IMG/VR virus record: IMGVR_UViG_3300045988_151420
Location: 1-42,976 of that record
Strand: one strand, 5' to 3'
Length of the DNA: 42,976 bases
DNA from: a virus
The position numbers were made by a program, and so were the translations under genes. Position 1 is the stretch's first letter; each line of letters starts with the position of its first letter. This document shows positions 6,866-34,337 of this stretch, piece by piece. Under the pieces are notes generated by a model. The model was not told the origin of the DNA. It did no database searches and saw only the letters and a list, made by a program, of their open reading frames with translations.

Positions 6866-7348
6866 TCAGTCGCCGGCGAAAACGTTCCGAGCAAACTCCG
6901 CAAGATTGCCGCCGTTATTGTCGGGCGTGGCTCCGGCCTGGGGCACCACGGGGGCGACAGACGGCTTAGCGTCGTGCAATGCCTTGGCGATTGCGGCAGC
7001 ATGAGCGTTGATTTCATCCTCGGTGGCTCCTCGGATCAAATCGACGCTGATACCGTGCTCTGCGGCCGCGTTGGCGGACCATTCGCGAACTTTAGCGGCA
7101 GTTTCAAAGTCTGCCACCTTGGCCTTTAGGGCTTCGATTGTGGCGTCTTTGTCGCCGATGGCCTTGGCGAGCTCGTCTCGTTCGTTGGCGGCGCGTCGAT
7201 TTTCTTTGGCGCGATTCTCCCACTTTCGAGATTCGCTTTTCCAGTCGATTTCAGGCTTACTAGCGGCGTTGTCCCCGTTCGTGGGGGCGTTACCGTCGTT
7301 AGTGGCGTTGTTGTCGGCTGGCGTGTCGCTTGTGGCGTTATCGCTCAT
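6866..7348 (-). CDS. Capsid scaffolding protein.
   Basis: Ala/Glu/Lys-rich coiled-coil ORF. I prefer the ATG at 7348 (MSDNATS...), which has AGGAAA upstream, over the track start at 7399. Confidence 0.7.
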   Translation of the reverse strand: MSDNATSDTPADNNATNDGNAPTNGDNAASKPEIDWKSESRKWENRAKENRRAANERDELAKAIGDKDATIEALKAKVADFETAAKVREWSANAAAEHGISVDLIRGATEDEINAHAAAIAKALHDAKPSVAPVVPQAGATPDNNGGNLAEFARNVFAGD

Positions 7349-7458
7349 TGGGCGTTTCCTATATTTTGACCGTGCGGTTATTGTGATATTTTCAGGCAAC
7401 TATATTTTGGGCTTTGCAGCCTTCCTTAAGTGACCATTGTTTATGCATTGTAGCACAA

Positions 7459-8184
7459 TCATTCAATTGGCCGTGTGCGCCATTCTGCGAGCTCCTCTTG
7501 GTGCGTGTCTATCCACGATGAGACGAGTTCACGGTGACGTTTGCGACCTTTTTCAGTTTTGTGTCTTGCTGCGAGCGTGTATGCTTTCGCAGGAACTTCG
7601 TGGGAGGTTGGGTCCCATGCGGGGACTGCGACGCATTTGCAATTGTCGTGTGCCCCGAATGACGCCGTCCCCTGTGACCTGTAGTAGCATTCGTTCATTG
7701 TGAGCATGACGCAGAAATTGCATGCTTGTGGGTTGCGTGTTCGTCTTTCCCAGCCCATTGCTTCCGAGTCGGCCCATGTCATGTCTGCGATTTGCGAGCG
7801 GGCACCGTCGCTGACGTATCGAATGAGCGCCCCGGTCAAATAGGATAAGGCGATGTCGGGGTTTCCGGCGTATAGTGCGCCCGCGCTGAATCTTACACTG
7901 TCGTCGATTTCGCCCTGTGGGGTGAGTGATGTTTGTACTGTGGGGGCGTCGCCTGGGATGTCTTGGTCTAGGCGCATGTCGCGGTACCATTCGTCGGCGA
8001 TTGCAGCGGCCGCACTGCCGTATTGGTCTACGAGGGCGGGCATGATTTCGAGCAGAAGATCGCGCGCTTGCTCGGGTCTTTGCCGTGCGGCGTGCGCCCA
8101 GAGCGTGTGTAGATCGTTTTGGGCGAGTGTGACGAGTGAGTCTACGGCTCGCCCGTATGCCCCGATTTCTGCGGTTGACAGCAT
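7459..8184 (-). CDS. MuF-like minor capsid / head morphogenesis protein.
   Basis: 241-aa ORF after the portal gene, carrying a C..C...H.NCKC motif (NFCVML...AHDNCKCV). Confidence 0.6.
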   Translation of the reverse strand: MLSTAEIGAYGRAVDSLVTLAQNDLHTLWAHAARQRPEQARDLLLEIMPALVDQYGSAAAAIADEWYRDMRLDQDIPGDAPTVQTSLTPQGEIDDSVRFSAGALYAGNPDIALSYLTGALIRYVSDGARSQIADMTWADSEAMGWERRTRNPQACNFCVMLTMNECYYRSQGTASFGAHDNCKCVAVPAWDPTSHEVPAKAYTLAARHKTEKGRKRHRELVSSWIDTHQEELAEWRTRPIE

Positions 8185-8191
8185 AATAGGA

Positions 8192-9808
8192 TCAGCCTAT
8201 TGGTGTTTTGGTGACGCCGGGCAGCTTAATGTTGCGCTTAACCCTGTTCCTTGTATTGGGCGCGTTATTAAGGTTCAGGTTATTGTCATTACCGTTGCCG
8301 CCATTGTTATTGACGGCGTTATCGTCACCATTGTTGTTGGCCGCGTCACCATTATCGGCGTTCTCGCCGTTCTCGCCGTTCTCACCCACGGTGTTCTCAT
8401 TGTTCGTGGCGGCGAGAGCACGATCAAGCAAAGACACCGCATTCTTCTTGCGGTTCTCAGCATTAATGTCTGCGAGATCATCCTCGGTGAGCCCGGCACG
8501 CCGCATGAGAGTCTGCGACTCCTGCAATGACGGGAACGCGGACACCATTTTGACCGCGAAATCGGCGGCAGACGACGGCGAGGAATAGCGGGCGGGGGTC
8601 CACTTCACCGAGGTCTTCCACGACTCCTGCGGCGGCTCGTCAAGCTTGTCCCGGACCATAATAATGTTCTGCAGCGTACGCCGCAACGGGGCCGTGAAAA
8701 TACGCCACTGATACTCAGCTTCGTCCGCGAGCGCCGCCTCAGCCGCCTGCATCGCCTCGGCCGAGGCGGGGTTCTCCGCGAATACTCCAATGGCGGACTG
8801 AGGAATGTTTGTGGCCGCGCACAAATTCTGCGCCAGCTGACGGTACATTTCCAGGTGAGGGCTCATGGTCATTTGTGAGAATTGCCCAATCGACGGAATG
8901 TCGCCGTTCTCGTTCGGCTCAAGCACCTGTACTCGGGCCATGATTGCGGACCACCTGTCCTGGCCGGCAAAATCTGCTCTTTCTGCGCCGAGCACGTACC
9001 GTTGCGGTGAGGAGAAGAATTCGGCGGAGGTTTCTGCGCGGACCATTGTCCTCACTGCCGCGTCCGTGAGGTACCTTACTTCGCGGGTGATTCGTGAATG
9101 CCCCAGAGGACGGTTCAGTTGCGGGTCGTAGCAGAGTGCTTCGACGAAAATGCGGTTGGGTGTGTCTCCTAGTTTTTCGGCTTTCCATCCGCTGCCGTTT
9201 TCTTTGGCGTCGATTCGCCAAATGGCGGTGGGGGTGTGCATGATGGCGCCGGCCGGCTGCCCGTATTTGTCGGTCTGATCAATTGTGAGGGCTGCCTCGA
9301 TTATGCGACGCCTAGTGTCCCATAGTGCTGCGGACCATTCCGCGTCACGGGCTTGCACGACGACGGGCGGTTCGCCGATGGTTTCGTCACCGCGTGTCAC
9401 TGTGATTAGCGAGAAAGAGTGCTTGTAGGCGGACGTTATCGCCTGTGCGAGATCGAGGTCGTAGTTGTTTGCGGAGAGTATTTCGTTTGCTTCGAAAGCG
9501 TCGGGAGCGCCGTTAAGGGAGTAGCCTTCGAACACGTGCCGGCGGGCGAGCATGGTGACGACTTTCTGAGGCCACCCAAGCGCGGCTTTGGTGCGCGTCA
9601 TTTGCGGTGGAATACTGATACCGAGGTCCTGGAAAGCGCGGTGGCCGTCATAGTAGACGGAGAGCAGCTTGTTTTTGTTCGAGTGCTGCTGCCATTTCTG
9701 CCACAGTTGCAGGAATGTTACCTTGTCTTCGTTGGGGAGTCCTGAAATGCTGGTCGGTGGCGGCGTGGCGTTAACGAGTCGTCCGTCGTCAGGATAAATT
9801 TCAGTCAT
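8192..9808 (-). CDS. Portal protein.
   Basis: 538-aa ORF overlapping the large terminase stop by 4 nt. The C-terminal tail is rich in Asn/Gly/Asp. Confidence 0.85.
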   Translation of the reverse strand: MTEIYPDDGRLVNATPPPTSISGLPNEDKVTFLQLWQKWQQHSNKNKLLSVYYDGHRAFQDLGISIPPQMTRTKAALGWPQKVVTMLARRHVFEGYSLNGAPDAFEANEILSANNYDLDLAQAITSAYKHSFSLITVTRGDETIGEPPVVVQARDAEWSAALWDTRRRIIEAALTIDQTDKYGQPAGAIMHTPTAIWRIDAKENGSGWKAEKLGDTPNRIFVEALCYDPQLNRPLGHSRITREVRYLTDAAVRTMVRAETSAEFFSSPQRYVLGAERADFAGQDRWSAIMARVQVLEPNENGDIPSIGQFSQMTMSPHLEMYRQLAQNLCAATNIPQSAIGVFAENPASAEAMQAAEAALADEAEYQWRIFTAPLRRTLQNIIMVRDKLDEPPQESWKTSVKWTPARYSSPSSAADFAVKMVSAFPSLQESQTLMRRAGLTEDDLADINAENRKKNAVSLLDRALAATNNENTVGENGENGENADNGDAANNNGDDNAVNNNGGNGNDNNLNLNNAPNTRNRVKRNIKLPGVTKTPIG

Positions 9809-11298
9809 AGGAACAGTACTCCGCCGCCACGATCATTTCTACTATTGGCGTTTTCGATTTTATCATAAGGCTTGTAACGGGGGCGTCTTTTTGTTGTGCG
9901 TGCGGCCCACATTGCGAGCGTGCACGCTTCTAGGCCGGCTACTGTGGCGCCGGGCGGGGCTTGTAGCGCCCATCCTCCGGACGTTCCGATTGGGCGCGGC
10001 GTCGCAGAAGCGGCCTCAGTCCGCAATTCCATGTCGTCCAGGTGCGTGATTGTGTTTTCGCGTAGTGAGGCGTCTAGCATGCTGTAAGCGTCTATGATTT
10101 GCGTGATCGTGGGCGTGATGATGACTTGCGGGCGTACTCCGATCGAACGGAGTCTTTCGATTGTGTCTCCGGCACCGTATTTTCCGTCTACGATGATTTG
10201 CGCCCACCTATCTTTTGTGTCCGCAATGTAGTCGATGATCCATTGTGTGCCCTCGCTCATGCGGCGTACGCCTTGGTGTGTGCAGAGTTCAACATGGGTT
10301 GGCGTGTTTGCCTTGTGTCCCGCTCTGGCTAGGGCGCAGGTTGATCCGTCGGGTGCGAATCGGATTGCGGCGCACCATCGCATACCACTGGGAGTGTTTT
10401 CTGGCCGTATTGTGGCGGTGTTCCAGGCGACGGGGTCGATTGCGAGCCTGTCGTTGGCGCGGTCCCATATTCCGAGGCCTTCACGTCGGAATGATTCTTC
10501 GCCGAGCTGCCGGCGCATTCTTAGAATGGCGGATTCGGGTGTGCGGCGCGGGTATGATGGGTTTGCTTTTTCCCATTGTTTCCTGTCGTCGCTGTTGGCG
10601 TTATAGTCGGCGGCCAACTCCAAATAGAGGCCGTCTTTTATTTCGCCTTGTAGTGCGAGGTTGCGGAATTCGCTGAACGCTTCTGATGGGTCTTTTGGTT
10701 TTGGTGGTGTCCCGATTTTGATGATGAGCGGATCAGGGGCGGTGTTTGTGGCGGGGATCATGTCGTCTAGTGCGGCTGCACCTAGAATCTGGGCTTCGTC
10801 GAAGAGGATCATGTCTACGCCGTGGAATCCGCGTCCGAATCCGCCTTCGCGGGCTCCGAAGAGGATTCGTGATCCATTGTTGAAGAGGATGGCTTGTTGC
10901 CCGTTTGCTTGTCGTATTTTGTTTACGTAGGGGGCGATTTCGGGGATTTGTGCCATTCCTTTCATGTCGTTGAATGTTTCGTCTGCGGTGCGTGTTCTGT
11001 GTGCGGTCCAGAGGACGAAGTAGTTGGGGTGGATGGTGGCGAGTGCGAATGTGAGGCCGCCGATTGTGTATGTTTTGCCGACCTGACGAGGAATGGATGC
11101 TTGGATTCCGTCGATGCTGGCTGCGTAGTGGCCGTCGTTTCTTTTTGCGAGGATTGCTTTGAGCCAGTCTTGTTGCCATATGTCGAGAGGGTATTGCATT
11201 TCTTGGAGGCGGCGTTGGACGGGCGGCCAGGCGGTGTGTGTGATGTTTTCGGGGAGGGTGAGGTGGGCGGCGATTTCGGATAGGTGTTTTTCGCTCAT
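9805..11298 (-). CDS. terL: Terminase large subunit.
   Basis: 497 aa with a Walker A-like IPRQVGKT and a Walker B-like MILFDEAQ; it lies upstream of the portal gene. Confidence 0.9.
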   Translation of the reverse strand: MSEKHLSEIAAHLTLPENITHTAWPPVQRRLQEMQYPLDIWQQDWLKAILAKRNDGHYAASIDGIQASIPRQVGKTYTIGGLTFALATIHPNYFVLWTAHRTRTADETFNDMKGMAQIPEIAPYVNKIRQANGQQAILFNNGSRILFGAREGGFGRGFHGVDMILFDEAQILGAAALDDMIPATNTAPDPLIIKIGTPPKPKDPSEAFSEFRNLALQGEIKDGLYLELAADYNANSDDRKQWEKANPSYPRRTPESAILRMRRQLGEESFRREGLGIWDRANDRLAIDPVAWNTATIRPENTPSGMRWCAAIRFAPDGSTCALARAGHKANTPTHVELCTHQGVRRMSEGTQWIIDYIADTKDRWAQIIVDGKYGAGDTIERLRSIGVRPQVIITPTITQIIDAYSMLDASLRENTITHLDDMELRTEAASATPRPIGTSGGWALQAPPGATVAGLEACTLAMWAARTTKRRPRYKPYDKIENANSRNDRGGGVLFL

Positions 11299-11299
11299 T

Positions 11300-11581
11300 T
11301 TAGATGCCGTCCCAGGTTTGTGTTTCGTTTGGAATGTTGGCGGTGTGTGTGGTGGTGTTTTCGTTTTGTGTGGTGGCGAGTTGGTCTGTGATTTGTATGA
11401 GTTGTGCGGTGAGTTTTGTGAGTGCGGTGTCGCCTGTTCTGGGGTCGTCTATGACGGTGGCGATTTTGTGTGCGAGTGCTTGGCGGATGAGGGTTGGGTT
11501 GCCGGTGTTTGTGGCGTCTGTGATGGGTGCGGGGGAGTTGGGTTCGTATACGGTGATTGTGGTGTTTGTGTGGGTTGTCAT
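11300..11581 (-). CDS. Hypothetical protein; candidate small terminase by position only.
   Basis: 93-aa ORF ending 2 nt before terL. It has a helical central part and Thr/Asn-rich ends. Confidence 0.5.
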   Translation of the reverse strand: MTTHTNTTITVYEPNSPAPITDATNTGNPTLIRQALAHKIATVIDDPRTGDTALTKLTAQLIQITDQLATTQNENTTTHTANIPNETQTWDGI

Positions 11582-11588
11582 GTCTTCT

Positions 11589-11594
11589 ATTATA
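11589..11594 (-). promoter_or_regulatory. Perfect TATAAT -10 hexamer 7 nt upstream of the ATG at 11581 (leaderless-type arrangement).
   Basis: Minus strand reads ccacaTATAATagaagacATG. No Shine-Dalgarno sequence is present. Confidence 0.4.
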
Positions 11595-11624
11595 TGTGGT
11601 GGCGTGTGTCACGTCCGGCAAGAG

Positions 11625-11750
11625 TTTTCCACAGGGTTATCCACAAGTCTAGGGTTTTCCACAGGGTTTTCCACAGGTTGGAGAGTTTTCCACATGATGG
11701 CGCTCACATTGTGACGTGGGTTACTGGAGTTATCCACAGGGTTTTCCACA
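11625..11750 (+). promoter_or_regulatory. Cluster of seven DnaA-box-like 9-mers, TT(A/T)TCCACA, all in the same orientation.
   Basis: TTTTCCACA at 11625, 11655, 11667, 11686 and 11742. TTATCCACA at 11637 and 11730. Three pairs are spaced 12 bp apart. Confidence 0.7.
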
Positions 11751-11885
11751 AGCGGGGAGGGATGGGCAGACCTTCGGGGTGTTCGCGGCCGGATGGGGGA
11801 GGGGGAGTGGCCCCCATCACACATTTGCTGTGGTGTGTGTCTTGTTTTGTTGTGTTCCCTGTCTTGTTTTGTGACGTGGGTCCTA

Positions 11886-11921
11886 CTTTAAGGGATCCCT
11901 TACTCCTTTAAGGGATCCCTT
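11886..11921. promoter_or_regulatory. Two direct copies of CTTTAAGGGATCCCTT, 20 bp apart, each with a palindromic AAGGGATCCCTT core.
   Basis: Copies at 11886-11901 and 11906-11921. The first extends to the 14-bp palindrome TAAGGGATCCCTTA. Confidence 0.6.
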
Positions 11922-11949
11922 GCGTTCGTCTTGTTTTGTTGCCATGGTT

Positions 11950-12245
11950 TTTTCGAACGCCATTGTTGTTTCATGCCTTTGAATGTTTTTGCATGTTTTT
12001 GTAACATTTCTTTTGTTTTTATGTATTTTTGTGCGTTTGTGCGTTGTGTTGCCTTTGCGGCATGCGTTGGCACCGTGCATGGCGCATGGTATTGGTATGC
12101 ATGTCATGCATCACATCGTCATCGTCGTGTTCATCATCATGTTGATCATGTTCATCATGATGATGATTGATCGTCATGATGTTCATCGTTCATTGTTCGT
12201 TGATCATTCATTGAACACTGATTATCGTTGATCATGTTGATCGTG
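11950..12245. other. AT/T-rich tract with five TTGATC(A/G)T repeats and a 12-bp TCATCATGATGA palindrome.
   Basis: Counted G+C: 10 of 50 in 11981-12030 and 22 of 60 in 12121-12180. Repeats at 12142, 12167, 12200, 12228 and 12237. Palindrome at 12152-12163. Confidence 0.6.
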
Positions 12246-12324
12246 ATTGTTTGTTGGTTGTGTGAACGTGAACGGTGTGAGGTGAGGTGAGTGGGTGGTG
12301 TCCGTCTCTCTTCAGTGTGTGGTG

Positions 12325-13333
12325 TGTGGAATGGCGGTGGGGTGTGCTGCTAGTCCACCTCAGTCCGTGATGCGGCCAGTGCTCTGCCCATCCTGGTGCA
12401 GTACTCGTCAGTGCTGCGGTCGTGTCGTGTGCTATTCGTTGCCAGGCGTTGTGGTGTGTGGGTGGTGAGTGTGTCTCTGTGCTGTTCGTGCAGTGGGGTA
12501 TCCTCTGTCCGCTTCCCCCTCGTCGTGGTGGTGGGTGGGGGCATTGTGGATGGTGGGGTGGCATGACGAGGTGGGGTGGCATTGCGATGGAAGGGCGGTG
12601 GTGCAGGTGCGGGTCCTCCGTCTAGTGTTGGTGTCCCCCTTGTTTAGTATCGGCGTCCCCCTTGTTGTTTGTGTGGTGGCCGTGTTGAAGGGCGGGGCGT
12701 GTGGTGCGTGGGGGTCCCCGCGTTCGGATTGGGTCCGTCCTCTTCGCATTGTTCCTGCCCTTCTTCTGTTTTGTGTTGCCATGTCTGTTGCAGGGGGCGG
12801 AGGAAGTGTGGTGGTGTGCGGCGGTGTGTTGTCTACTATCGCACAGTGTTGTGCGTGTGGTGTGTGTTACGAATGGCGATGGTGTGTGGGTGTGGTGGGA
12901 CTGGTCCCGCTATTCTCTTCTGTCTTTGTGTTTGCTGTCACAGTGTTGTTGGTTTAGTGGTGTGTTTTTGTGTCAGGGTTGTGTCATTGTGGAATGGCGG
13001 TGATGGTTGTGTTGGGTAGAAGAGCGGTGGTGTCTACTGTCTACGCACCGTTTGTGTTGCGGTGTGCGTTGTAGTGGTGTGCGTTGTGTTACGTCATGTT
13101 GTGTTGTGTTGTGGAATGGCGGTGGGGTGTTGTGTTGTCTTTCTTGTCCGCTTCTCTCTTTTTCTCTTTCTCTTTGTGTTGGTGTTCGGGGTAGTGCGCG
13201 CGCAGCTTTGCGAGCACGCGCGTTATCCCCGAACACCATTGTGTTCTCTTGTTGTTCTGTCTTCTCTTCTCTTCTCTTCTAGCTCCGCTCTTTCATCACC
13301 CGCTCTTCTTCTGTTATTGAATGGCGGTGGTGT
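12325..13333 (+). repeat. Dispersed array of about 8 copies of (T)GGAA(T/G)GGCGGTGG, all in the same orientation.
   Basis: Copies near 12325, 12587, 12685, 12869, 12988, 13018, 13109 and 13316. Confidence 0.65.
13181..13237. repeat. Long hairpin, copy A of a three-member family.
   Basis: 11-bp outer stem ggtgttcgggg/ccccgaacacc around the core tagtgcgcgcgcagctttgcgagcacgc. Confidence 0.65.
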
Positions 13334-13336
13334 GAT

Positions 13337-13681
13337 TTACCATGTATCACTGTGTTGTGTTGGCATGACAGCTACGGGTAGCCTGTCTCTTTCCCCTTCG
13401 TTTTTCCGGTAGTGGCGTGCTCTTCCTTTGCCTCCTCGTCCGTTGCCTCGTCTGCTGTTGCATTTGGCGCATAATACTCGCCCGTTGTCTGGGTGGTTGG
13501 TTCCGCCTAACGAGGCGGGGATTATGTGGTCTGCCTCAGCGCTGTTGGGTTTGCGTTCGCCGTTGTTTGTGTATTGGAGTTTGACTCCGCATGCTGGGCA
13601 GTGTGTGATGCCGAGCTGTTGTGCTCTGGCTAGTACTTGTTTTCTGAATTGTTTGTGTTCTCGGATGCTTGTTCTGCTCAT
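13337..13681 (-). CDS. HNH endonuclease.
   Basis: 114 aa with HCPACG...EADHIIPASLGGTNHPDNGRVLCAKCNSRRG; GAAGGA lies before the ATG. Confidence 0.9.
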   Translation of the reverse strand: MSRTSIREHKQFRKQVLARAQQLGITHCPACGVKLQYTNNGERKPNSAEADHIIPASLGGTNHPDNGRVLCAKCNSRRGNGRGGKGRARHYRKNEGERDRLPVAVMPTQHSDTW

Positions 13682-13725
13682 TGCTATTCCTTCTCTTTAC
13701 TCTTTTCTCTTCTCTTTCGTGTTGG

Positions 13726-13781
13726 TGTTAGGTGGTGGCGCGTCGCAGCGTCAGCGAGACGAGCGCCTCCACCGTCTAACA
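13726..13781. repeat. Long hairpin, copy C (diverged core gcgcagcgtcagcgag).
   Basis: Stems tgtta/taaca, ggtgg/ccacc and ggcgc/gcgcc. It shares the upstream GTGTTGGTGTT and pyrimidine-tract context with copy A. Confidence 0.55.
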
Positions 13782-13849
13782 CTACTCTCTACTCTCTGCT
13801 CTCTGCTCTCTGCCCCCCGCCTTTCTTCTCTTGTTTTGTTTTGTGTGGT

Positions 13850-13909
13850 GGCGTGTGTTGTGTAGTGCGCGCGCAGCTTTGCGAGCACGCACGTAACACA
13901 ACGCACGCC
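13850..13909. repeat. Long hairpin, copy B.
   Basis: The 28-nt core at 13863-13890 is identical to 13192-13219. A different 13-bp outer stem (13850-13862 / 13897-13909) still pairs. Confidence 0.65.
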
Positions 13910-14539
13910 CTGATGTTTTGGTTTGTCTACTTAATGCAGTGTGTGTTTCTTCTGCCACACATCAGTTCATTGCGTCCACCACACACTGTTCGTTATTAAC
14001 GGCAACAGTATTCAACATTGAACACTACCGCCCTTAATTACATCACAACACATATTTCCTAATTAAACACCGTCTAGGAGTGTTAGACAGTGTCTAATTC
14101 TAGTACTCTTTTAAGAGTGTAGGTCGGGCCCAACACAGTGGCGAGCCCGTCGAAAACACCAGGCGACGCTGACGCTCGCTTGCGTCGCTAGGGCTCCTCA
14201 GCGGCTGCGCCGCCGATCGTCTTCGACGATTCGTCTACTCGAGTGTAGCATACGGGACCAAAGTCACCACAACAAACACTGCCAACAAACAATCACAAAC
14301 GAGGACTAAACGTTGTAATCGCGCGAAAACATGTCGCCGCAACCCTTGCTGAAACCGCAGAAAGTGTGACGACACACACCAACATTGTAGTAACACAAAC
14401 GGGTGTTTTCATCCTAGAACGCCGGTTGCTAGCAAACAACCCACATGCGTAGAAAGTAAACGGAAGGTGAACAAGGTGAACGGAAGGTTAGCGGAAACTG
14501 TGAAAGATCAGCACCATGATGGCCGACACCACACGCACC

Positions 14540-14568
14540 CATCACACACCGCCCTTCCACCACCTGAG
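14540..14568 (+). repeat. Left copy of the direct repeat CATCAC-N3-CCGCCCTTCCACC-N1-CCTGAG.
   Basis: Aligned by eye with 15456-15485. Confidence 0.6.
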
Positions 14569-14575
14569 ACGCACT

Positions 14576-14608
14576 GAGGCCCCACCCCCTCATCGGAAGT
14601 GGGGCCTC
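14576..14608. terminator. Stem-loop downstream of the 110-aa leftward gene.
   Basis: 10-bp stem gaggccccac/gtggggcctc. Confidence 0.55.
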
Positions 14609-14638
14609 GTCATCCTCGGGCCGGTCGGGTCAGTAGGG

Positions 14639-14971
14639 TCAGGAATTCCGGTACAGCAGAGCGCGCGAGCCGGTATCCGCCTCCTCGTTGACGACGGGGA
14701 CGAGGGCGACCTCGAGGTTGGCGTGAGCGAGATAGGCGTCCCGGGCGAGGCGGGCGATTCGAGACCAAAGGTCCGTGTCGGCCATCGCGTACTCGTAGGC
14801 GTCATCCCATCCATTAGGCACCTCAAGCGGCTCGATCGAGTCGATGCCGCAGTCGTCGCCCGTCGTGTAGAGGGTCCAAGGGTCACCAGTGCGGGGAGCG
14901 TGGACCCGGTAGATGACGCCGAACTCGATGGTCTCGAGGACCGGGTCCTCGCTGCGGTGAATGGTGCTCAT
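14639..14971 (-). CDS. Hypothetical acidic protein.
   Basis: 110-aa ORF with AGGAGGAAAAGAGAAG immediately before the ATG. Local GC is high (39 of 60 in 14641-14700). Confidence 0.75.
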   Translation of the reverse strand: MSTIHRSEDPVLETIEFGVIYRVHAPRTGDPWTLYTTGDDCGIDSIEPLEVPNGWDDAYEYAMADTDLWSRIARLARDAYLAHANLEVALVPVVNEEADTGSRALLYRNS

Positions 14972-15089
14972 CTTCTCTTTTCCTCCTGGTCGGTTGTGTT
15001 GTTCCGTTGGTATAAGAATGCCTTTGGGCCTTGTATTAGCACAAGACCCGGGGGGGGCTCTGTCACATTGTAAGGGTGGGATGGGCGGC

Positions 15090-15392
15090 TCAGCCGCCCA
15101 GTGCGGTCAGCTCGGCCATGAAGGGCCTATCGGCCTCAACGCGGTCGGTCAGCCGCCGCAGCGCGACGTCGATCCGGCTCGCCACCCCCTCTCCATCGAG
15201 GTCTCGGATGTTGTCCGTGGTATCGGCGATGAAAGCGCGAACTAGCTTGAACGCTTCGTAGGGGTAGAGGTCGAACATGAAGAATCGCAGCGCCGCACGC
15301 AGGTACTTGTCGGCGGCCTCCTCGTTGTCTTCGGCGTAGCGGAGCGTGAGGGCTAGCATGACTTTAGGCTCGGGGGCGGTTGAGGCATCCAT
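15090..15392 (-). CDS. Hypothetical protein.
   Basis: 100-aa ORF with protein-like composition; the ribosome binding site is weak. Confidence 0.6.
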   Translation of the reverse strand: MDASTAPEPKVMLALTLRYAEDNEEAADKYLRAALRFFMFDLYPYEAFKLVRAFIADTTDNIRDLDGEGVASRIDVALRRLTDRVEADRPFMAELTALGG

Positions 15393-15455
15393 GCCCCTAT
15401 GGTGACACGGGCGGAGCGGCAGCGCAAGCCGCGGGCGCAGAAGTCGTCACTCCCT

Positions 15456-15485
15456 CATCACCCGCCGCCCTTCCACCCTCCTGAG
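15456..15485 (+). repeat. Right copy of the direct repeat CATCAC-N3-CCGCCCTTCCACC-N2-CCTGAG.
   Basis: Same blocks as 14540-14568, with identical spacing from CATCAC to the 13-mer. Confidence 0.6.
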
Positions 15486-15508
15486 GCACAGCTCACACAC
15501 TCTGGGTG

Positions 15509-15539
15509 TTGACAGCACCCACCACCGTTATTCTACGAT
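15509..15539 (+). promoter_or_regulatory. Candidate early promoter: TTGACA, 19-nt spacer, TACGAT.
   Basis: Perfect -35 at 15509-15514 inside GTGTTGAC. It lies 50 nt before the first rightward gene. Confidence 0.4.
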
Positions 15540-15588
15540 AGACGCACCACCAAAGGTCGGTGCACGCGAGAAAGAGAGGACGCACATA

Positions 15589-16026
15589 GTGGACAACACG
15601 CTAGATGAGGGAATGCTCGTCCGACACATGGACGTGCGTAGGACTAACGAACTGCTGAACGGGCAAGGGTCACACTTCGCAATTCTGATCGAGCACATGG
15701 ACGGAACGGATTACGAGGTGAGCGTCAACGACAAAAGAGAGACGCCCGAACATTTGACGGCGCTGCTCGCCGCTGTTACACGTGGTGCTGACATGATGAT
15801 CCGCGCCCTCGACATTCTCCGTACTGTCGGATACGTGGACGTGCGGCCTGTCGCACTATTGGGCAGGGCAATCATCTTTGGTTTGGATCGTGTCACGCTT
15901 GAGGTTGAAGTTATTGAGCGCAGTGACGGTGAGATTGAGTGCGGCATCAGCGTTGCCGGCGTGAATCAGGAGAATATTGAGGAGATTGGGAGTGTGCTGG
16001 AGGAGAAGGGCATTGACGTCGTCTGA
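15589..16026 (+). CDS. Hypothetical early protein.
   Basis: 145-aa ORF with a GTG start and GAGAAAGAGAGGA upstream. Confidence 0.7.
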   Translation: MDNTLDEGMLVRHMDVRRTNELLNGQGSHFAILIEHMDGTDYEVSVNDKRETPEHLTALLAAVTRGADMMIRALDILRTVGYVDVRPVALLGRAIIFGLDRVTLEVEVIERSDGEIECGISVAGVNQENIEEIGSVLEEKGIDVV

Positions 16027-18113: not shown

Positions 18114-18392
18114 ATGGGTACAGTTTTCGGAACGGTTGTCTCTCAGGCGGTCCGTGAGTGGAATAATGACGGGCGCCGCCACGAGTTCAATGTACATGCG
18201 CCCGCCCGCAAGGTTTACGATGGCGGCATCATCACTATCGGCAGCACCTGCCGTATCGTGGTCGCCGGTAACACTGTGCGGGCGAGGTCCATTAAGCGAA
18301 AGGGCGCCGCGATTCCTCCTGAGAGTGTCGGTGAGTTCGTCCACCGTGCTTTGACTGTCGCGGCTAACCGCAGTAAGGCGGCCGACAAATGA
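18114..18392 (+). CDS. Hypothetical protein.
   Basis: 92-aa ORF with GGGAAGAGAGAAG before the ATG. Confidence 0.7.
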   Translation: MGTVFGTVVSQAVREWNNDGRRHEFNVHAPARKVYDGGIITIGSTCRIVVAGNTVRARSIKRKGAAIPPESVGEFVHRALTVAANRSKAADK

Positions 18393-26732: not shown

Positions 26733-26751
26733 CGCACATGGTCGTATGATT

Positions 26752-26791
26752 TGAATAGCGGGGGCAACATGATTGTTGCCCCCGCTATTCA
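26752..26791 (+). terminator. Strong stem-loop terminator.
   Basis: 18-bp perfect stem tgaatagcgggggcaaca/tgttgcccccgctattca with a 4-nt loop. Confidence 0.7.
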
Positions 26792-26818
26792 ACCAAAAAG
26801 AGAAGAGAGAAAACACGA

Positions 26819-27868
26819 ATGATGCAACCATCGTACAAGCTGTATAGGCTAGCTGCTAACAGGTTGGAGCGGCTTCAGACGAGCGTCCCCAGTGGAGAGT
26901 TCCTTTTCCCTTCCGTGGATGATGCCCTGGAGTGGTGTTTTACCTATTTGGAGGTTCCAGAGGATAAGAAATGGCGTTTTGTGCGCCCTGACATTACTAA
27001 ACCAATCGCTCCGTGTAACCTTGACGTGGCACTAGATCATACGCCGGATATGCCGTATTTGCGCTACCATCGCAAAGCAAATGAGACGCTCATGCCGAGC
27101 CGTTCCTACAACGATATTCGCCTCAATATTTGGGCGTGGCGAGAGGAGAATGGTGTAGATAATTTTGAGTTCGACGGCATGATGTCAGCTATCGAATGGT
27201 GCTACAACGAATTCAACCCATCGGTTGTGTTTGAATGGGAGTTCGCGACCGAGAACGGAGTATTTCGCCCCGGTGAAATCTCTATCATACGCACCAAGAC
27301 AAGAAAGAAAGGTCGCAACCGCCGCATTCTCCATCCGGTCAAGCCGGTAAACAAAGACTTGACCGGGGAAGAGCCGAAAATGGTGGGACGCCGCTTTCGA
27401 CAGTGGGAAGTCACGTCCCCCGAGTACAGGTTCATGAGCGATCACCATAAGTATTTTCATATGCGTTGCGTGAATTGCGGGGAAGAGAAGTGGATTCGTG
27501 TCTCGCGCTTCAGCGGCGGCGAACCCGTGAATTGCCCGTGCACTAGCTCATCGCTTCGCATGTACAAGGAACTACCGAAATGGCTCACCCCCTCACTCAT
27601 GCGACGCATCTATGATCTGAAAAGATACATTCCGAAAGAGGACTTCCATTTCGACTCTCCACAGGATTGTGCAATATGGTGCTACAAGAATCTGCCTTTC
27701 CCAGATGACCCGGATACGCCGTGGACTCTGAAGAAGGGGCGCGGGAAGCCAATGGCGCCGGACACGCTATGGCTCAGGGTAGACGGAGTGCGTTCGGACA
27801 CGGTGAAAAATATTGCTACCGTGAACAAGTCGCGGCGTAATCTGCGGAAGAAAGGAGGAAAGGCGTGA
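26819..27868 (+). CDS. Hypothetical protein with three internal (A/C)(L/I)(E)WC(F/Y) repeats and a Cys cluster.
   Basis: 349 aa. Motifs: ALEWCFTY, AIEWCYNE, AIWCYKN, and CVNCGEEK...NCPC. Confidence 0.75.
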   Translation: MMQPSYKLYRLAANRLERLQTSVPSGEFLFPSVDDALEWCFTYLEVPEDKKWRFVRPDITKPIAPCNLDVALDHTPDMPYLRYHRKANETLMPSRSYNDIRLNIWAWREENGVDNFEFDGMMSAIEWCYNEFNPSVVFEWEFATENGVFRPGEISIIRTKTRKKGRNRRILHPVKPVNKDLTGEEPKMVGRRFRQWEVTSPEYRFMSDHHKYFHMRCVNCGEEKWIRVSRFSGGEPVNCPCTSSSLRMYKELPKWLTPSLMRRIYDLKRYIPKEDFHFDSPQDCAIWCYKNLPFPDDPDTPWTLKKGRGKPMAPDTLWLRVDGVRSDTVKNIATVNKSRRNLRKKGGKA

Positions 27869-31337: not shown

Positions 31338-31385
31338 CACCTCACACAACACTGGTTTTGTGGGGTAGGCCACCGCCCATGCGTG

Positions 31386-31414
31386 TTGACTCATGGTGCA
31401 CGGGAGAGCATGAT
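31386..31414 (+). promoter_or_regulatory. Candidate rightward promoter: TTGACT, 17-nt spacer, CATGAT.
   Basis: GTGTTGAC at 31383-31390 is the mirror image of 31333-31340. Confidence 0.4.
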
Positions 31415-31778: not shown

Positions 31779-31814
31779 GGTGGGTGGCCCGTCACGGGCG
31801 ACGGGCCACCCACC
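31779..31814 (+). terminator. Stem-loop terminator.
   Basis: 15-bp perfect stem ggtgggtggcccgtc/gacgggccacccacc. Confidence 0.65.
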
Positions 31815-32441: not shown

Positions 32442-32768
32442 ATGTCTACTTTTTCGAGTGCCCCGTCGGCGCCGACTCCCGCACCGCCTCCGCCCGCGAC
32501 CAGTGCACCTACTCCGCCGCCCCCGCCGCCTCGGCCTGCCCCGGCGCCCCCAACATGGTCTGTGCCGCTCAGTGTAATGGCACCCCCGCGCCCCACGAAT
32601 CGTTTCATGGCATGGCTTCGCGAGCCGAGGTCCACAGGCGAAGGTATGGCAATGGGGGCAGTCGCCCTCATCGTCGGTGTTATTGGACTGTCATTGGCGT
32701 GGCGTGCTTTTTGGTGGCTTCAAGTATTCTTCGCCTATTTCGCCACGGTCGGCACTCTCGGCAACTGA
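32442..32768 (+). CDS. Proline-rich protein with a C-terminal membrane anchor.
   Basis: PTPAPPPPATSAPTPPPPPPRPAPAPP, then GAVALIVGVIGLSLAW and FWWLQVFFAYFATVG. Confidence 0.65.
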   Translation: MSTFSSAPSAPTPAPPPPATSAPTPPPPPPRPAPAPPTWSVPLSVMAPPRPTNRFMAWLREPRSTGEGMAMGAVALIVGVIGLSLAWRAFWWLQVFFAYFATVGTLGN

Positions 32769-32773
32769 GAACA

Positions 32774-33367
32774 GTGTGGACGACTGTGGACGTGGTGTTT
32801 CTGAAGCCGGTTTGGCTGTATCTGTCGGACGGTAGCAAAGAGAGAATCATAGCGCAAACCGGCGACGACAAGGGGATTGGTTTCGATTCTGTTCGTGCTG
32901 GTGTAGAGCGTAGACACTATTTCAAGTACAGCGAGTATTCGATTACCCAGACAAAGAGAGGAGATTATGTTGTGTCGCCTGTAGATGATGAGAATGTCGA
33001 GGATGATGCGCACGAGAATGTCGTGTCTCGCCCGTCGCATTATGCGGCCCTCGACCCTGAGCCCATCACTTTCATTCGCGACAAAGACTATCTGACTGGC
33101 AGTGCTTTGAAGTATATTTTCAGAGCCGGCCATAAGGATGGTGCTGACGAGAATGTTGACATGGGGAAAGCGGCGTGGTATCTTCGTGAACTCGTCAACG
33201 AGCGGGGAGGCCAGACGGTGATCGCGATTCTGCGAAACGTCTACTGGGACACTATCGATAGACAGCTCATCCCAGAGGATCGCGCCAGGGAGGTTCGAGA
33301 CCGGCTCACAGAATTCACGTCCGCTATTTCACACGATCATCTCAGCAACTATATTCAGGAAGCATGA
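32774..33367 (+). CDS. DUF3310-like protein.
   Basis: SHYAALDPEPITFI...GSALKYIFRAGHKDG...MGKAAWYLRELV. The start codon is uncertain (GTG at 32774-32795). Confidence 0.55.
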   Translation: MWTTVDVVFLKPVWLYLSDGSKERIIAQTGDDKGIGFDSVRAGVERRHYFKYSEYSITQTKRGDYVVSPVDDENVEDDAHENVVSRPSHYAALDPEPITFIRDKDYLTGSALKYIFRAGHKDGADENVDMGKAAWYLRELVNERGGQTVIAILRNVYWDTIDRQLIPEDRAREVRDRLTEFTSAISHDHLSNYIQEA

Positions 33368-33831
33368 GTATTGTGGAGAATATTGTTGATATTGTTTTCG
33401 TTGATTTGGCGAAATGCGGTGAACTGTGGGGTGCGGCCGCGTTTATGCATGCCACCGACTGTAACTTCACTATCAGGAGCTATTCGATCGACCCGCCTGG
33501 CGCGATCCGTGCACTCATGCACACAGTGCAGCGCGTTCAGGGACTGACATTTGCCTTGCGCTCATGGCACGAAGGAAGGATCACTTTTACTAGATGCACA
33601 CATTCGGATGAGATGGGCGGGTATGTGCTCACTTATAGCGATTCATCTGATGATGGTGCGTACGTTTGTGCGATCATACTGTCGGAGCGCAGTAAAAACA
33701 CGGTAGGAATCGTACCGGGAGAGAATCCCGCCCTTGCCCTTGAAGCCAAAACAATTCTACGTGATAAAGGCTACACGGTCCACATGATCAAGGAAAACGA
33801 AGACGAAGGGGTACCGCAATGGCTACGCTGA
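33364..33831 (+). CDS. Hypothetical protein.
   Basis: 155-aa ORF with an ATGA overlap. Confidence 0.7.
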   Translation: MSIVENIVDIVFVDLAKCGELWGAAAFMHATDCNFTIRSYSIDPPGAIRALMHTVQRVQGLTFALRSWHEGRITFTRCTHSDEMGGYVLTYSDSSDDGAYVCAIILSERSKNTVGIVPGENPALALEAKTILRDKGYTVHMIKENEDEGVPQWLR

Positions 33832-34337
33832 GTGATTTCACTCTCCGACGCAGAATCGATTGGGGTGAACTCGTCTCTGACTGGCGCAAACCGCTGTCTA
33901 TTCAACCGGCGTCGGTGGAAGTGCGATTGGACGAAAACATTATCACCTACCGTCACGGTGACGAAAACATCACTATCGACGAGAATGGTTACGAGTTGCT
34001 GCCGGGTGAGTTTATTCTCGCGTCCACGCAGGAGAAAGTCAGCGTGCCCGCCGATCTAGTGGCCAGGGTGGAAGGCAAATCATCGTGGGCGCGACGCGGA
34101 ATTCTCGTACACGTGTCCGCGGGATACATTGACCCAGGGTTCCAGGGAAATGTGACTTTGGAGATCGCTAACCTGCACTCCAGTAAGCCCGCACGTCTTT
34201 TCTCTGGGGATAGGATTGCACAGATTGCTTTCGAGGACTTGGACAGGCCCGCCAGTACACCGTACGGCACCAACGGATTGGGTTCGCATTATCAGGGGCA
34301 GATCGGCGTCACACCGTCTGCTCGGGAGGTGGAATAA
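33819..34337 (+). CDS. dcd: dCTP deaminase family protein.
   Basis: GEFILASTQEKVSVPADLVARVEGKSSWARRGILVH..GYIDPGFQGNVTLEIAN...IAQIAF...YQGQ. Confidence 0.8.
   Translation: MATLSDFTLRRRIDWGELVSDWRKPLSIQPASVEVRLDENIITYRHGDENITIDENGYELLPGEFILASTQEKVSVPADLVARVEGKSSWARRGILVHVSAGYIDPGFQGNVTLEIANLHSSKPARLFSGDRIAQIAFEDLDRPASTPYGTNGLGSHYQGQIGVTPSAREVE

What the first reader, a model, noticed from the sequence alone, without database searches (positions are those of the whole stretch)
12325..15485. Oriented dispersed motif CCACCGCC(A/C)TTCCAC that reverses orientation at the skew switch
About eight copies of (T)GGAA(T/G)GGCGGTGG lie on the plus strand between 12325 and 13333. They are near 12325, 12587, 12685, 12869, 12988, 13018, 13109 and 13316, at irregular spacings of 30-260 bp.

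To the right of 13.95 kb the reverse complement appears on the plus strand: CCGCCCTTCCACC at 14549 and 15465, and a weaker ACTACCGCCCTTAAT at 14020. Partial versions (CACCGCCC) lie just upstream of the candidate promoter at 31386 and after the terminator at 31806.

An asymmetric site whose orientation tracks position resembles the stoperator sites of cluster A mycobacteriophages. It also resembles polar sequences organised around a genome end or origin.
Basis: seen in the sequence. Interest (0 to 1): 0.65.

Follow-up and report, generated by a model that had tools for sequence, protein, structure and literature searches.

The report
Oriented operator-like sites near phage end
A 13-base asymmetric DNA motif is repeated 3-8 times, always in one orientation, in the non-coding right end of an uncultivated ~43-kb actinobacterial phage and occurs inverted inside its early promoter, so it is most likely a set of binding sites for a still unidentified regulator, with the logic of mycobacteriophage 'stoperators' but a different layout.

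Summary
GGAAKGGCGGTGG occurs eight times (two mismatches or fewer) on the + strand of 11800-13336. Shuffles that keep the local G+T-rich composition give 0.06. Two inverted copies lie at 14546 and 15462.

In 45 related ~43-kb phage contigs, all 249 strong sites obey the same rule: + orientation left of about 13.9 kb, - orientation to the right. The syntenic copies are more conserved than their flanks. About 900 kb of the rest of these genomes holds only three hits.

Contig ends pile up at 11768, so the array lies 0.55-1.55 kb from the inferred cos end, in the right-end non-coding DNA.

Best reading: these are operator-type sites for an unidentified DNA-binding protein that controls the early promoter. 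The terminal array would then act as roadblocks, an insulator or a sink.

It is not a member of the L5-type stoperator system. The sites are not genome-wide, and I found no Rep homologue, integrase or partition genes.

The partial copies at 31370 and 31806 are not conserved and are not members. The binding protein and the direction of transcription remain untested.

The parts
12328..12340 (+). Motif copy GGAATGGCGGTGG. It marks the border between the conserved terminal 0.5 kb and the variable array.
   Evidence: Exact match. 96% column identity in 18 relatives against 65% in the flanks. Present at about -1000 from the HNH stop in nearly all relatives.
12589..12601 (+). Motif copy GGAAGGGCGGTGG
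   Evidence: Exact match. 76% identity against 58% in the flanks.
12686..12698 (+). Motif copy TGAAGGGCGGGGC (degenerate 3' part)
   Evidence: Core GAAKGGCGG. 17-21 bits. 71% identity against 61% in the flanks.
12870..12882 (+). Motif copy CGAATGGCGATGG, specific to this genome
   Evidence: 2 mismatches. It lies in a segment absent or unalignable in most relatives.
12991..13003 (+). Motif copy GGAATGGCGGTGA
   Evidence: 1 mismatch. 87% identity against 60% in the flanks.
13018..13030 (+). Motif copy AGAAGAGCGGTGG, the same variant (GAAGAGCGGTGG) as in the early promoter of relatives
   Evidence: 2 mismatches. 18-23 bits. Not conserved at this position.
13113..13125 (+). Motif copy GGAATGGCGGTGG, 57 nt left of invariant hairpin 1
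   Evidence: Exact match. Position class about -240 from the HNH stop, 41 distinct examples.
13318..13330 (+). Motif copy TGAATGGCGGTGG, 6 nt beyond the HNH stop codon
   Evidence: 1 mismatch. 92% identity against 63% in the flanks. Position class -24, 40 distinct examples in the 45 relatives.
14546..14558 (-). Inverted copy (GGAAGGGCGGTGT on the - strand) at the right border of the conserved non-coding block 14090-14540. It is part of a 30-nt direct repeat that flanks the variable cassette.
   Evidence: D18. 87% identity against 63% in the flanks. Position class about +1190 in most relatives.
15462..15474 (-). Inverted copy (GGAAGGGCGGCGG on the - strand), 34 nt upstream of the -35 of the early promoter. 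It is the second copy of the 30-nt cassette-flanking repeat.
   Evidence: D18. Present only in some relatives.
15522..15534 (-). Promoter-embedded copy (AGAATAACGGTGG on the - strand; CCACCGTTATTCT on +). It fills the spacer and abuts the -10. It is degenerate in the window and close to consensus in relatives.
   Evidence: 14.1 bits with a matrix built only from relatives' array sites. 35 distinct relatives score a median of 15.9 bits in the same register, TA|GAAGRGCGGTGG, a score reached by only 0.015% of window positions. 24 bits in L349/L350.
15509..15539 (+). Early promoter: -35 TTGACA (15509-15514), 19-nt spacer, -10 TACGAT (15534-15539). It lies about 50 nt upstream of the first + strand gene (15589).
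   Evidence: The only TTGACN-N16-20-TANNNT match in non-coding DNA of the window. TTGACR and TAYAGT are nearly invariant in 36 relatives.
11330..11344 (+). Possible extra copy inside the 3' end of gp1 (11300-11581, - strand). Weak here (TGGAATGTTGGCGGT); GGAATGTCGGTGG in relatives.
   Evidence: 12.8 bits in the window. At least 18 bits in the 15 distinct relatives whose flank reaches it, and 22 bits in L349/L350. It lies in coding sequence, so its conservation is uninformative.

Best explanation
The motif is the recognition site of one sequence-specific DNA-binding protein, phage-encoded or possibly host, that binds an asymmetric 13-15 bp site, probably as a monomer or head-to-tail.

One site lies in the spacer of the sigma-A-type early promoter and abuts its -10, so occupancy there should shut off early transcription (operator function). 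The 3-8 co-oriented sites lie in the non-coding DNA between the HNH gene and cos/gp1/terminase. On their transcribed (-) strand they have the same polarity as the promoter site has on its (+) strand.

By analogy with L5-type stoperators, the array would act as polar roadblocks or an insulator that keeps transcription of the central HNH unit from running across the joined cos into the late operon. It could also act as a local sink that sets the free concentration of the regulator.

Shown:
- The sites are non-random, conserved and localised.
- They follow a strict orientation rule.
- One copy is embedded in the promoter.

Inferred:
- That a protein binds the sites.
- That it represses the early promoter.
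- That the array blocks or titrates.
- The direction of transcription through the array.
For: - Enrichment survives a local-composition null: 8 observed against 0.06 expected.
- Phylogenetic footprint: the non-coding region is only 75-84% identical among relatives, yet the copies at 12328, 13318, 12991 and 14546 are 87-96% conserved against 60-65% in their flanks. Two of the six most conserved blocks in 12300-13330 are motif copies.
- In 45 relatives, 249 sites show no orientation exception. The number of copies (1-7) and their spacing (27-723 bp) vary while the sites persist. That fits binding sites rather than a fixed RNA fold or a phased origin.
- The information profile is bipartite. GGAA and GGCGGTG are conserved, including an invariant AA and C, and the flanks carry little information.
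- A matrix built only from array sites finds the promoter spacer in the same register in 35 distinct relatives (alignment). This copy lies upstream of the transcription start, so recognition must be at the DNA level.
- Array copies lack a -35 and a TANNNT -10, so they are not promoters themselves.
- The sites are absent from the rest of the genome: 3 hits in about 900 kb of relatives.
- Precedent exists for asymmetric operators that also occur outside promoters and are polar (PMC6550527, PMC9283540). Precedent also exists for a small repressor binding GGCGGC direct repeats near a genome end in lytic D29 (PMC12266134).
Against: - No DNA-binding protein could be identified. There are no Pfam or PHROG regulator hits and no PDB sequence homologue. 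Two AlphaFold models were too poor to use.
- There are no transcript data, so the direction of transcription through the array and the position of the late promoter are unknown.
- Uniform orientation within the array is also what tandem duplication and the G+T-rich composition would give without selection on polarity.
- The copy at 14546 lies beyond the terminator of - strand cassette genes, in the 'wrong' polarity for them.
- A clustered array in about 1 kb of non-coding DNA has no counterpart in the L5 system.
Confidence: 0.45

Rival explanations
1. Iteron-type sites of a replication origin or its control region. An initiator binds the array next to an A+T-rich unwinding element, and the copy in the promoter autoregulates the operon that encodes the replication proteins, as in P1, F or R6K replicons.
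For: - Direct repeats in non-coding DNA, with a copy in the promoter of the operon encoding primase/helicase, SNF2 helicase, exonuclease and Sak4.
- A+T-richer segments at 12100-12250 and 13985-14100.
- Seven DnaA-box-like repeats nearby.
- Invariant hairpins that could act in single-stranded DNA.
- A strand-composition gradient of the kind expected from strand-displacement replication.
Against: - Spacing is irregular (27-723 bp) with no helical phasing, and copy number varies from 1 to 7 among close relatives. Functional iteron arrays are usually compact and phased.
- No initiator-like protein was recognised.
- The cumulative GC skew of the genome does not turn here.
- The most conserved non-coding blocks are not the motif array.
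Confidence: 0.15
2. Binding sites of an activator, or promoter elements for a phage-modified RNA polymerase. They would drive inward transcription (rightward from the left array, leftward from the right copies), giving short G/U-rich RNAs that end at the hairpins. These could be antisense regulators of the late leader or R-loop primers.
For: - Read 5'-GGAA...GGTGG-3', all copies point towards the centre.
- Several are followed on that strand by a C/T-rich tract, a strong hairpin and a T-rich tail, for example 13113 followed by hairpin 13182-13240.
- The copy at 15462 lies about 70 nt upstream of, and points towards, the cassette gene starting at 15392.
- The promoter-embedded copy would let such a factor switch off the early promoter while firing leftwards towards the late genes.
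Against: - There is no conserved -10-like element at a fixed distance downstream of the copies, and no TANNNT in most cases.
- No sigma factor or RNA polymerase gene was found.
- The tracts between motif and hairpin are poorly conserved.
- Hairpin 2 plus its purine tract reads better as the 5' leader and ribosome-binding site of HNH on the opposite strand.
Confidence: 0.1
3. An RNA-level signal. The C-rich form CCACCGCCAUUCC in a long, C+A-rich, unstructured late leader (HNH to cos to gp1) would be read by an RNA-binding factor, for example for Rho loading or antitermination, processing or stability.
For: - The - strand of 11800-13330 is C+A-rich and G- and T-poor, so it is unstructured and rut-like.
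- The copies have the same sense as the flanking - strand genes.
- Hairpins followed by purine tracts look like 5' leader modules on that strand.
Against: - The best-conserved common denominator of the right arm is the copy inside the promoter spacer, which lies upstream of the transcription start and cannot act as RNA.
- No partner sequence or covarying pairing was seen.
- Rho sites are not 13-nt conserved words (my own knowledge).
Confidence: 0.08
4. Signals tied to the genome end. These would be accessory sites for packaging termination, or for protecting or handling the DNA end that enters the cell first.
For: - Contig ends place cos at about 11768-11780, so the array is 0.55-1.55 kb from the right end.
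- By analogy with lambda (my own knowledge), the right end is packaged last and ejected first.
- A further copy lies on the other side of cos in gp1.
Against: - Known cos accessory sites lie within about 200 bp of the nick. That position is occupied here by other repeats (TTWTCCACA x7) and invariant sequence.
- A one-directional motor would not need the orientation to flip at 13.9 kb.
- This idea does not explain the promoter copy.
- For a Chi-like role, the G-rich strand has the wrong polarity relative to the end, and the word is absent from the rest of the genome.
Confidence: 0.07
5. No function of their own. The copies would be decayed duplicates of the promoter core or of a leader module, multiplied by slippage in low-complexity G+T-rich DNA.
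For: - The array region is full of indels and duplications.
- Three window copies are not conserved.
- The module of hairpin plus purine tract is also duplicated without a gene behind it.
- Similarity between array copies and the promoter extends into the first bases of the -10 (TTC-YACA).
Against: - Orthologous copies are clearly better conserved than their flanks across 18-45 genomes that differ by about 20% in this region.
- Every genome with an adequately sampled left flank keeps at least one copy, and nearly all keep three or more.
- The invariant positions (AA, C, GG) fit selection on a recognition surface.
Confidence: 0.05

Closest known systems
Repressor-stoperator system of Cluster A mycobacteriophages (L5, Bxb1, TipsytheTRex), also reported in Streptomyces phage R4 (PMC6550527, PMC9283540, PMC10276819)
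   Same: - 13-bp asymmetric site.
- One copy in the core of the early lytic promoter near the right genome end, driving an operon transcribed away from that end.
- The other copies are not in promoters and keep one polarity relative to the neighbouring genes.
- The site resembles part of the promoter itself: the -35 in L5, and the spacer with the start of the -10 here.
   Different: - 20-30 (L5) or 8 or more (R4) sites spread through short intergenic gaps of the whole genome, against 4-11 sites confined to about 3.3 kb here.
- No Rep homologue, integrase or parABS was found.
- The phage is probably lytic.
- Most sites are packed in about 1 kb of gene-free DNA next to cos.
- The site sequence is unrelated.
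D29 Gp36, a MerR/Xis-like repressor of a lytic mycobacteriophage (PMC12266134)
   Same: - A regulator of a lytic actinophage.
- It binds G+C-rich direct repeats (AGGCGGC-N13-AGGCGGC, sharing the GGCGG core) close to a genome end.
- It lowers expression of genes downstream.
   Different: - One pair of repeats at fixed spacing in D29, against an irregular array plus a promoter copy here.
- No MerR or HTH_17 protein was detected in the window.
P1 C1 repressor and its dispersed asymmetric 17-bp operators (my own knowledge, not checked here)
   Same: A monomer-type repressor recognises an asymmetric operator at many sites, some of them in promoters.
   Different: P1 operators are scattered over a 94-kb genome. 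P1 is temperate and has antirepressor circuitry. No homologue was found here.
Iteron arrays with an autoregulated rep promoter (P1 incC/incA, F, R6K; my own knowledge)
   Same: Direct repeats of an asymmetric site occur in two groups of opposite orientation, with one group overlapping the promoter of the replication operon.
   Different: Iterons are 17-22 bp, compact and phased. Here spacing is 27-723 bp and unphased, and no initiator was recognised.
Tus-Ter / RTP-Ter polar barriers (my own knowledge)
   Same: Asymmetric sites are arranged as two opposed groups around a central zone.
   Different: Those are chromosome-scale replication fork traps with dedicated Tus or RTP proteins. Nothing here indicates fork arrest, and one copy lies in a promoter.

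Membership tests
L5-type repressor-stoperator system | Asymmetric recognition site of about 13 bp | tested here: met
   240 distinct sites give tGtGGAAKGGCGGTGg, with no dyad symmetry.
L5-type repressor-stoperator system | One site acts as an operator inside the early lytic promoter | tested here: met
   By position only. A copy fills the spacer up to the -10 in the window and in 35 distinct relatives. Repression itself was not tested.
L5-type repressor-stoperator system | 20-30 sites distributed through the whole genome in short intergenic gaps | tested here: not met
   All strong sites lie in 12327-15535. There are 3 hits in about 900 kb of the remaining genome of relatives.
L5-type repressor-stoperator system | Site orientation correlates with the direction of transcription | tested here: inconclusive
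   The array lies between - strand genes (HNH, gp1, TerL) and the right-hand copies lie next to the + strand early operon, with matching polarity. However, there are no transcript data, and the copy at 14546 is antisense to the neighbouring cassette genes.
L5-type repressor-stoperator system | Encodes a Rep-type repressor (N-terminal HTH plus stoperator domain) | tested here: not met
   No HTH or repressor family among 31 small or unknown proteins (Pfam, PHROGs). No PDB sequence match at E<=1, in a library that should include the solved Rep structure. Sensitivity is limited to sequence similarity.
L5-type repressor-stoperator system | Temperate life style (integrase or parABS) | tested here: not met
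   No integrase or ParA/ParB hits. No close prophage in 185,579 species genomes.
L5-type repressor-stoperator system | Orientation-dependent block of transcription elongation | not testable with these tools
   Needs reporter or in vitro transcription assays.
Iteron-type replication origin or control array | Compact, regularly (helically) spaced direct repeats | tested here: not met
   121 spacings range from 27 to 723 bp. Rayleigh test at 10-11 bp periods gives p of 0.5-0.9. Copy number is 1-7.
Iteron-type replication origin or control array | Adjacent A+T-rich unwinding element and host-factor boxes | tested here: inconclusive
   G+C falls to 0.38-0.44 at 11900-12299 and 13900-14099. TTWTCCACA x7 lies 0.6 kb away. 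Neither is shown to function in replication.
Iteron-type replication origin or control array | A recognisable initiator protein whose promoter is overlapped by a repeat | tested here: inconclusive
   The promoter overlap is met. No initiator was recognised among the downstream genes.
cos accessory sites (cosB/cosQ type) | Located within about 200 bp of the terminase nick site | tested here: not met
   Inferred cos is at 11768-11780. The nearest array copy is at 12328. The cosB position holds different repeats.
Chi-like recombination or anti-nuclease signal | A short word over-represented throughout the genome, oriented so that the G-rich strand ends 3' at the entry end | tested here: not met
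   The word is absent elsewhere. At the right end the G-rich strand runs 5' to 3' away from the end. The host genome is unknown, so host over-representation could not be tested.

The most novel reading that the evidence does not exclude
The two opposed groups of sites would be polar barriers, to RNA polymerase or to replication forks. They would fence off the 1.2-kb centre of the right-end non-coding region, which holds the HNH gene, three invariant hairpins, an A+T-rich core and an invariant 170-nt block.

That centre would be a control or replication-start module on the DNA end that enters the cell first. The extreme G+T skew, which decays gradually into the terminase and portal genes against the usual coding-strand bias, would be the mutational trace of prolonged single-strandedness from strand-displacement synthesis starting there.

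That would be a new organisation for a cos siphophage.
Probability: 0.1. Interest if true: 0.75.

Novelty: new variant of a known kind. Interest (0 to 1): 0.5.

Why it matters
This phage lineage is very abundant in human-associated metagenomes. One 92-aa early protein alone has more than 900 clusters at 90% identity. Yet the lineage has no cultured member, and almost all of its early proteins are unannotatable.

A conserved operator-like word links the early promoter to a terminal array, and that gives a concrete handle. A 30-bp probe could fish out the regulator, and the promoter-plus-site pair is a ready test system for the early-to-late switch.

If the array works as polar roadblocks, the stoperator principle would extend beyond temperate Cluster A and R4-type phages to a probably lytic phage, in a clustered rather than dispersed layout. 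If it does not, the alternatives (origin, inward RNAs) are equally testable with the coordinates given here.

Tried and rejected
- **Chance or composition.** Rejected by local shuffles.
- **Known RNA families or tRNAs in 11-16 kb.** None found.
- **Similar DNA in 50,697 phage records.** None by megablast or blastn. The closest named phage, Actinomyces phage LC001 (portal 54% identical), lacks the motif, as does a 41%-TerL relative.
- **Array copies as sigma-70-type promoters.** They have no -35 or TANNNT.
- **ECF-type promoter (GGAAT-N17-GTT/GTC).** The downstream element is not at a fixed distance.
- **Hidden protein-coding genes in the array.** Variation shows no 3-nt periodicity. Long ORFs there, including ones called by pipelines, are a by-product of the T-poor - strand.
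- **Two-tetrad G-quadruplex (GG-N3-GG-N-GG-N-GG).** The 'loop' bases AA and C are the most invariant, while the first and last G are only 58-77% conserved. This points to base-specific recognition instead.
- **Partial copies at 31370 and 31806.** Not conserved.
- **Finding the binding protein.**
  - Pfam, PHROGs and PDB sequence searches gave nothing.
  - I modelled the 349-aa three-repeat, Zn-ribbon-like protein (26819-27868) and the basic 92-aa early protein (18114-18392). Both models were poor (pLDDT 48 and 54), and the one fold search run, on the 349-aa model, gave no fold match.
  - The two alleles of the 349-aa protein, 70% identical to each other, do not go with any change in the motif.
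- **Cassette genes as the binder.** Rejected: the cassette is absent in L070 and L074, which keep the sites.
- **Scan of viral contigs for the 14-mer.** It gave mostly single chance hits in unrelated contigs, and no closely spaced pairs.
- **Host identification.** Failed.

Full report
**What the window is.** The 42,976-nt window carries a 30-nt terminal direct repeat, and a 1,498-codon ORF spans the junction. It is therefore a circularly assembled, complete phage genome of about 42.9 kb.

- It encodes a large terminase (9805-11298, -), an SPP1-type portal (8192-9808, -) and an HNH endonuclease (13337-13681, -).
- A long + strand operon starts at 15589. It includes a primase/helicase, an SNF2-type helicase, an exonuclease, Sak4 and a RuvC-like resolvase.
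- The closest named phage is Actinomyces phage LC001, with a portal only 54% identical.
- The region of interest has no nucleotide match among 50,697 phage records.
- The lineage is uncultivated but common. I retrieved 64, 45 and 53 related loci from viral contigs with three different proteins. One small early protein has more than 900 clusters at 90% identity.

**Where the genome ends are.** In related contigs that break near the terminase gene, nine ends fall at window coordinates 11767-11769. Ends approaching from the other side fall at 11712-11796. The sequence at 11755-11800 is invariant. I infer a cos site at about 11768-11780.

In the conventional orientation the genome therefore starts with gp1 (most likely the 93-aa ORF 11300-11581, as independent gene callers also have it) and the terminase. 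The stretch 11780-15590 is its right end. Apart from the 114-codon HNH gene and a variable cassette of 0-2 small genes, these 3.8 kb are non-coding. Variation shows no three-base periodicity, and there are no Rfam or tRNA hits.

- Against the whole window, there are 21 matches with two mismatches or fewer, where 2.25 are expected.
In 11800-13336, which has only 10% A, I find 8 matches on the + strand and none on the - strand. The mean in 1000 dinucleotide-preserving shuffles is 0.06. The 9-mer core occurs 6 times against 0.004 expected.
- The local skew switch is also real. G+T is 63-82% per 100 nt up to about 13.9 kb and 30-49% from 14.0 to 14.6 kb.

**Conservation.** The non-coding region is only 75-84% identical among relatives whose terminase is 94-99% identical, which makes footprinting informative.

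| Copy | Column identity in motif | Column identity in 30-nt flanks |
|---|---|---|
| 12328 | 96% | 65% |
| 13318 | 92% | 63% |
| 12991 | 87% | 60% |
| 14546 | 87% | 63% |
| 12589 | 76% | 58% |
| 12686 | 71% | 61% |
| 13113 | 64% | 42% |

- Two of the six most conserved blocks of the array region are exactly motif copies.
- Three window copies (12870, 13018, 15462) are not conserved in place.
- In 45 related contigs a position matrix finds 249 sites. Every site left of about 13.9 kb is in the + orientation and every site right of it is in the - orientation, without exception. Two further ENA genomes show the same.
- Arrays hold 1-7 strong sites, mostly 3-5. Spacings are 27-723 bp with no helical phasing.
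- 240 distinct sites give tGtGGAAKGGCGGTGg. AA, C and the GG pairs are almost invariant, and the flanks carry little information.
- Outside this region the word is essentially absent. No comparable site occurs elsewhere in the window, and there are 3 hits in about 900 kb of the remaining parts of related genomes.

**The promoter copy.** The only consensus-like sigma-70/sigma-A promoter in non-coding DNA lies about 50 nt upstream of the first + strand gene. In the window it reads TTGACA-N19-TACGAT at 15509-15539.

In 36 relatives it is TTGACR, then 6-7 variable bases, then CCACCGCYCTTC, then TAYAGT. The spacer block is the reverse complement of the motif variant GAAGRGCGGTGG.

A matrix built only from the relatives' array sites scores these spacers at a median of 15.9 bits, always in the same register. 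Only 0.015% of window positions reach that score. In some genomes the promoter copy is as good as any array copy, at 24 bits.

The copies at 14546 and 15462 belong to a 30-nt direct repeat (motif plus CTGAGRC) that brackets the variable cassette. Relatives without the cassette have a single such copy 59 nt upstream of the promoter copy.

**Interpretation.**
- One copy lies upstream of the transcription start, in the core of a promoter, so the shared recognition must be at the DNA level.
- The array copies lack a -35 and a TANNNT element, so they are not promoters of the same kind.
- Sites persist while their number and spacing change, which fits protein-binding sites better than a folded RNA or a phased origin.

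I therefore take the motif to be the site of one sequence-specific DNA-binding protein. At the promoter it would act as an operator.

The array lies between - strand genes (HNH upstream; gp1 and terminase downstream across the joined cos). On that strand its copies have the same polarity as the promoter copy has on its own strand. This is the orientation logic described for L5-type stoperators, where reversal of a site abolishes the block (PMC9283540, PMC6550527). A roadblock or insulator role, or a local sink for the regulator, is the natural extension. It remains an inference. I have no transcript data, and I could not identify the protein.

**Caveats on orientation.** Tandem duplication conserves orientation, and the motif is itself G+T-rich. 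On each arm, then, the observed orientation is the one the local composition favours. Selection is needed to explain the sites. It is not strictly needed to explain their polarity.

**Comparison with known systems.**
- *L5-type stoperators.* The logic is closest here: an asymmetric 13-mer, an operator in the early promoter near the right end, and polar non-promoter copies. Membership fails on three tested features. Sites are not genome-wide. No Rep-like protein was found. No integrase, parABS or prophage copies exist.
- *D29 Gp36.* This protein binds AGGCGGC direct repeats near a genome end and represses downstream genes in a lytic phage (PMC12266134). It shows that such regulators exist without lysogeny. 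No MerR/Xis-like protein is detectable here.
- *Iteron arrays with an autoregulated promoter, and Tus-Ter-like opposed barriers.* These share the two-group geometry. They are not supported by spacing or by recognisable proteins.

**Rivals.** I rate five alternatives below the best explanation:
- an origin or iteron function (0.15);
- factor-dependent inward promoters giving G/U-rich RNAs that end at the hairpins (0.10);
- an RNA signal in the C+A-rich late leader (0.08);
- genome-end functions in packaging, ejection or end protection (0.07);
- functionless duplicates (0.05).

The evidence for and against each is listed in the rival explanations above.

**Dead ends.** The partial copies near 31370 and 31806 are not members. 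Attempts to name the binding protein failed. No host or prophage was found. LC001 and more distant relatives lack the motif.

**Verdict.** The finding is real, conserved and strictly oriented. It is most likely a regulator-binding array tied to the early promoter. It works like operators and stoperators but is not a member of that family. I class it as a new variant of a known kind, of moderate interest. The strongest open points are the identity of the binding protein, the direction of transcription through the array, and the unexplained strand-composition gradient around it.

Noticed in passing
window 11625-11750: Seven same-strand copies of TTWTCCACA, the DnaA-box consensus. There are 8 in the window against 0.62 expected. 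They lie between the inferred cos (11768) and the gp1 start (11581) and are almost invariant in relatives. This is the classical cosB (small-terminase binding) position, but host DnaA binding is also possible.
   Followed up: partly
window 11755-11800 (ends at 11767-11769): Ends of related contigs pile up at one coordinate within an invariant G-rich sequence (GGGATGGGCA|GACCTTCGGGG). This is the likely cos site. It makes 11780-15590 the right end of the genome.
   Followed up: partly
window 11890-11901 and 11910-11921: Two perfect 12-bp palindromes AAGGGATCCCTT, 20 bp apart and about 120 bp inside the right end. They look like a dimer-binding site. They are followed by a highly conserved T-rich stretch, GCATG repeats (12050-12115) and TGATCA/ATCATG repeats (12120-12250).
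   Followed up: no
window 13182-13240, 13728-13790, 13846-13910: Three paralogous long hairpins (RNA folding energy -30 to -41 kcal/mol, z-score down to -7.2), invariant in 18 relatives. Their outer stems differ between paralogues but stay paired. On the - strand each is followed by a purine tract like this phage's ribosome-binding sites. Hairpin 2 plus its tract is the 5' leader of HNH, and hairpin 1 has no gene behind it.
   Followed up: partly
window 14090-14540: Conserved non-coding block (84% identity overall, with 14090-14260 almost invariant). It has no ORF, no periodicity and no Rfam match. It contains AACGGAAGGT twice (14459, 14479). Its function is unknown.
   Followed up: partly
window 14570-15480: Variable cassette of 0-2 small acidic proteins (110 and 100 aa here, - strand, no family hits), with a strong stem-loop at 14577-14609. 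It is bracketed by 30-nt direct repeats (14532-14561 and 15448-15477). It is absent in some relatives and different in others, so this is a recombination hot spot next to the early promoter.
   Followed up: partly
window about 7000-13900: The G+T skew of the + strand is not limited to non-coding DNA. gp1, the 5' part of the terminase gene and HNH have a C+A-rich, T-poor sense strand, and the skew decays gradually through the terminase and portal genes. This is opposite to the bias of the + strand genes at 16-23 kb. It resembles a single-strandedness (deamination) gradient. It remains unexplained.
   Followed up: partly
window 12232-13239 (- strand); L349 5363-6082; L350 5704-6234: Because the - strand is T-poor, it has few stop codons. 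Gene callers predict long low-complexity ORFs across the motif array, and HNH is called at 175-200 aa in many records against 114 aa here. These calls are probably artefacts.
   Followed up: partly
window 31386-31414: A second conserved sigma-70-like promoter (GGGTTGACY-N17-CATGATT) lies upstream of a + strand operon. That operon includes a nucleotide kinase (32555-33367) and a dCTP deaminase (33819-34337), which may hint at altered nucleotide metabolism or DNA modification.
   Followed up: partly
window 26819-27868: A 349-aa basic protein with three ~60-aa repeats (F.F....A.EWCY) and a CxxC...CxC element. It occurs as two alleles, 70% identical to each other, that are exchanged among otherwise similar genomes. 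It has no family or fold assignment.
   Followed up: partly
window 26751-26792: Inverted repeat TTGAATAGCGGGGGC / GCCCCCGCTATTCAA between two + strand genes. It is terminator-like. Its arms score moderately (16.8 bits) against the motif matrix, probably by chance.
   Followed up: no
L350 (ENA ERZ28641517 scaffold_207): One related contig is 57.6 kb long, about 14.6 kb longer than the genome. It could be a concatemer or chimeric assembly, or a phage flanked by other DNA. This was not resolved.
   Followed up: no
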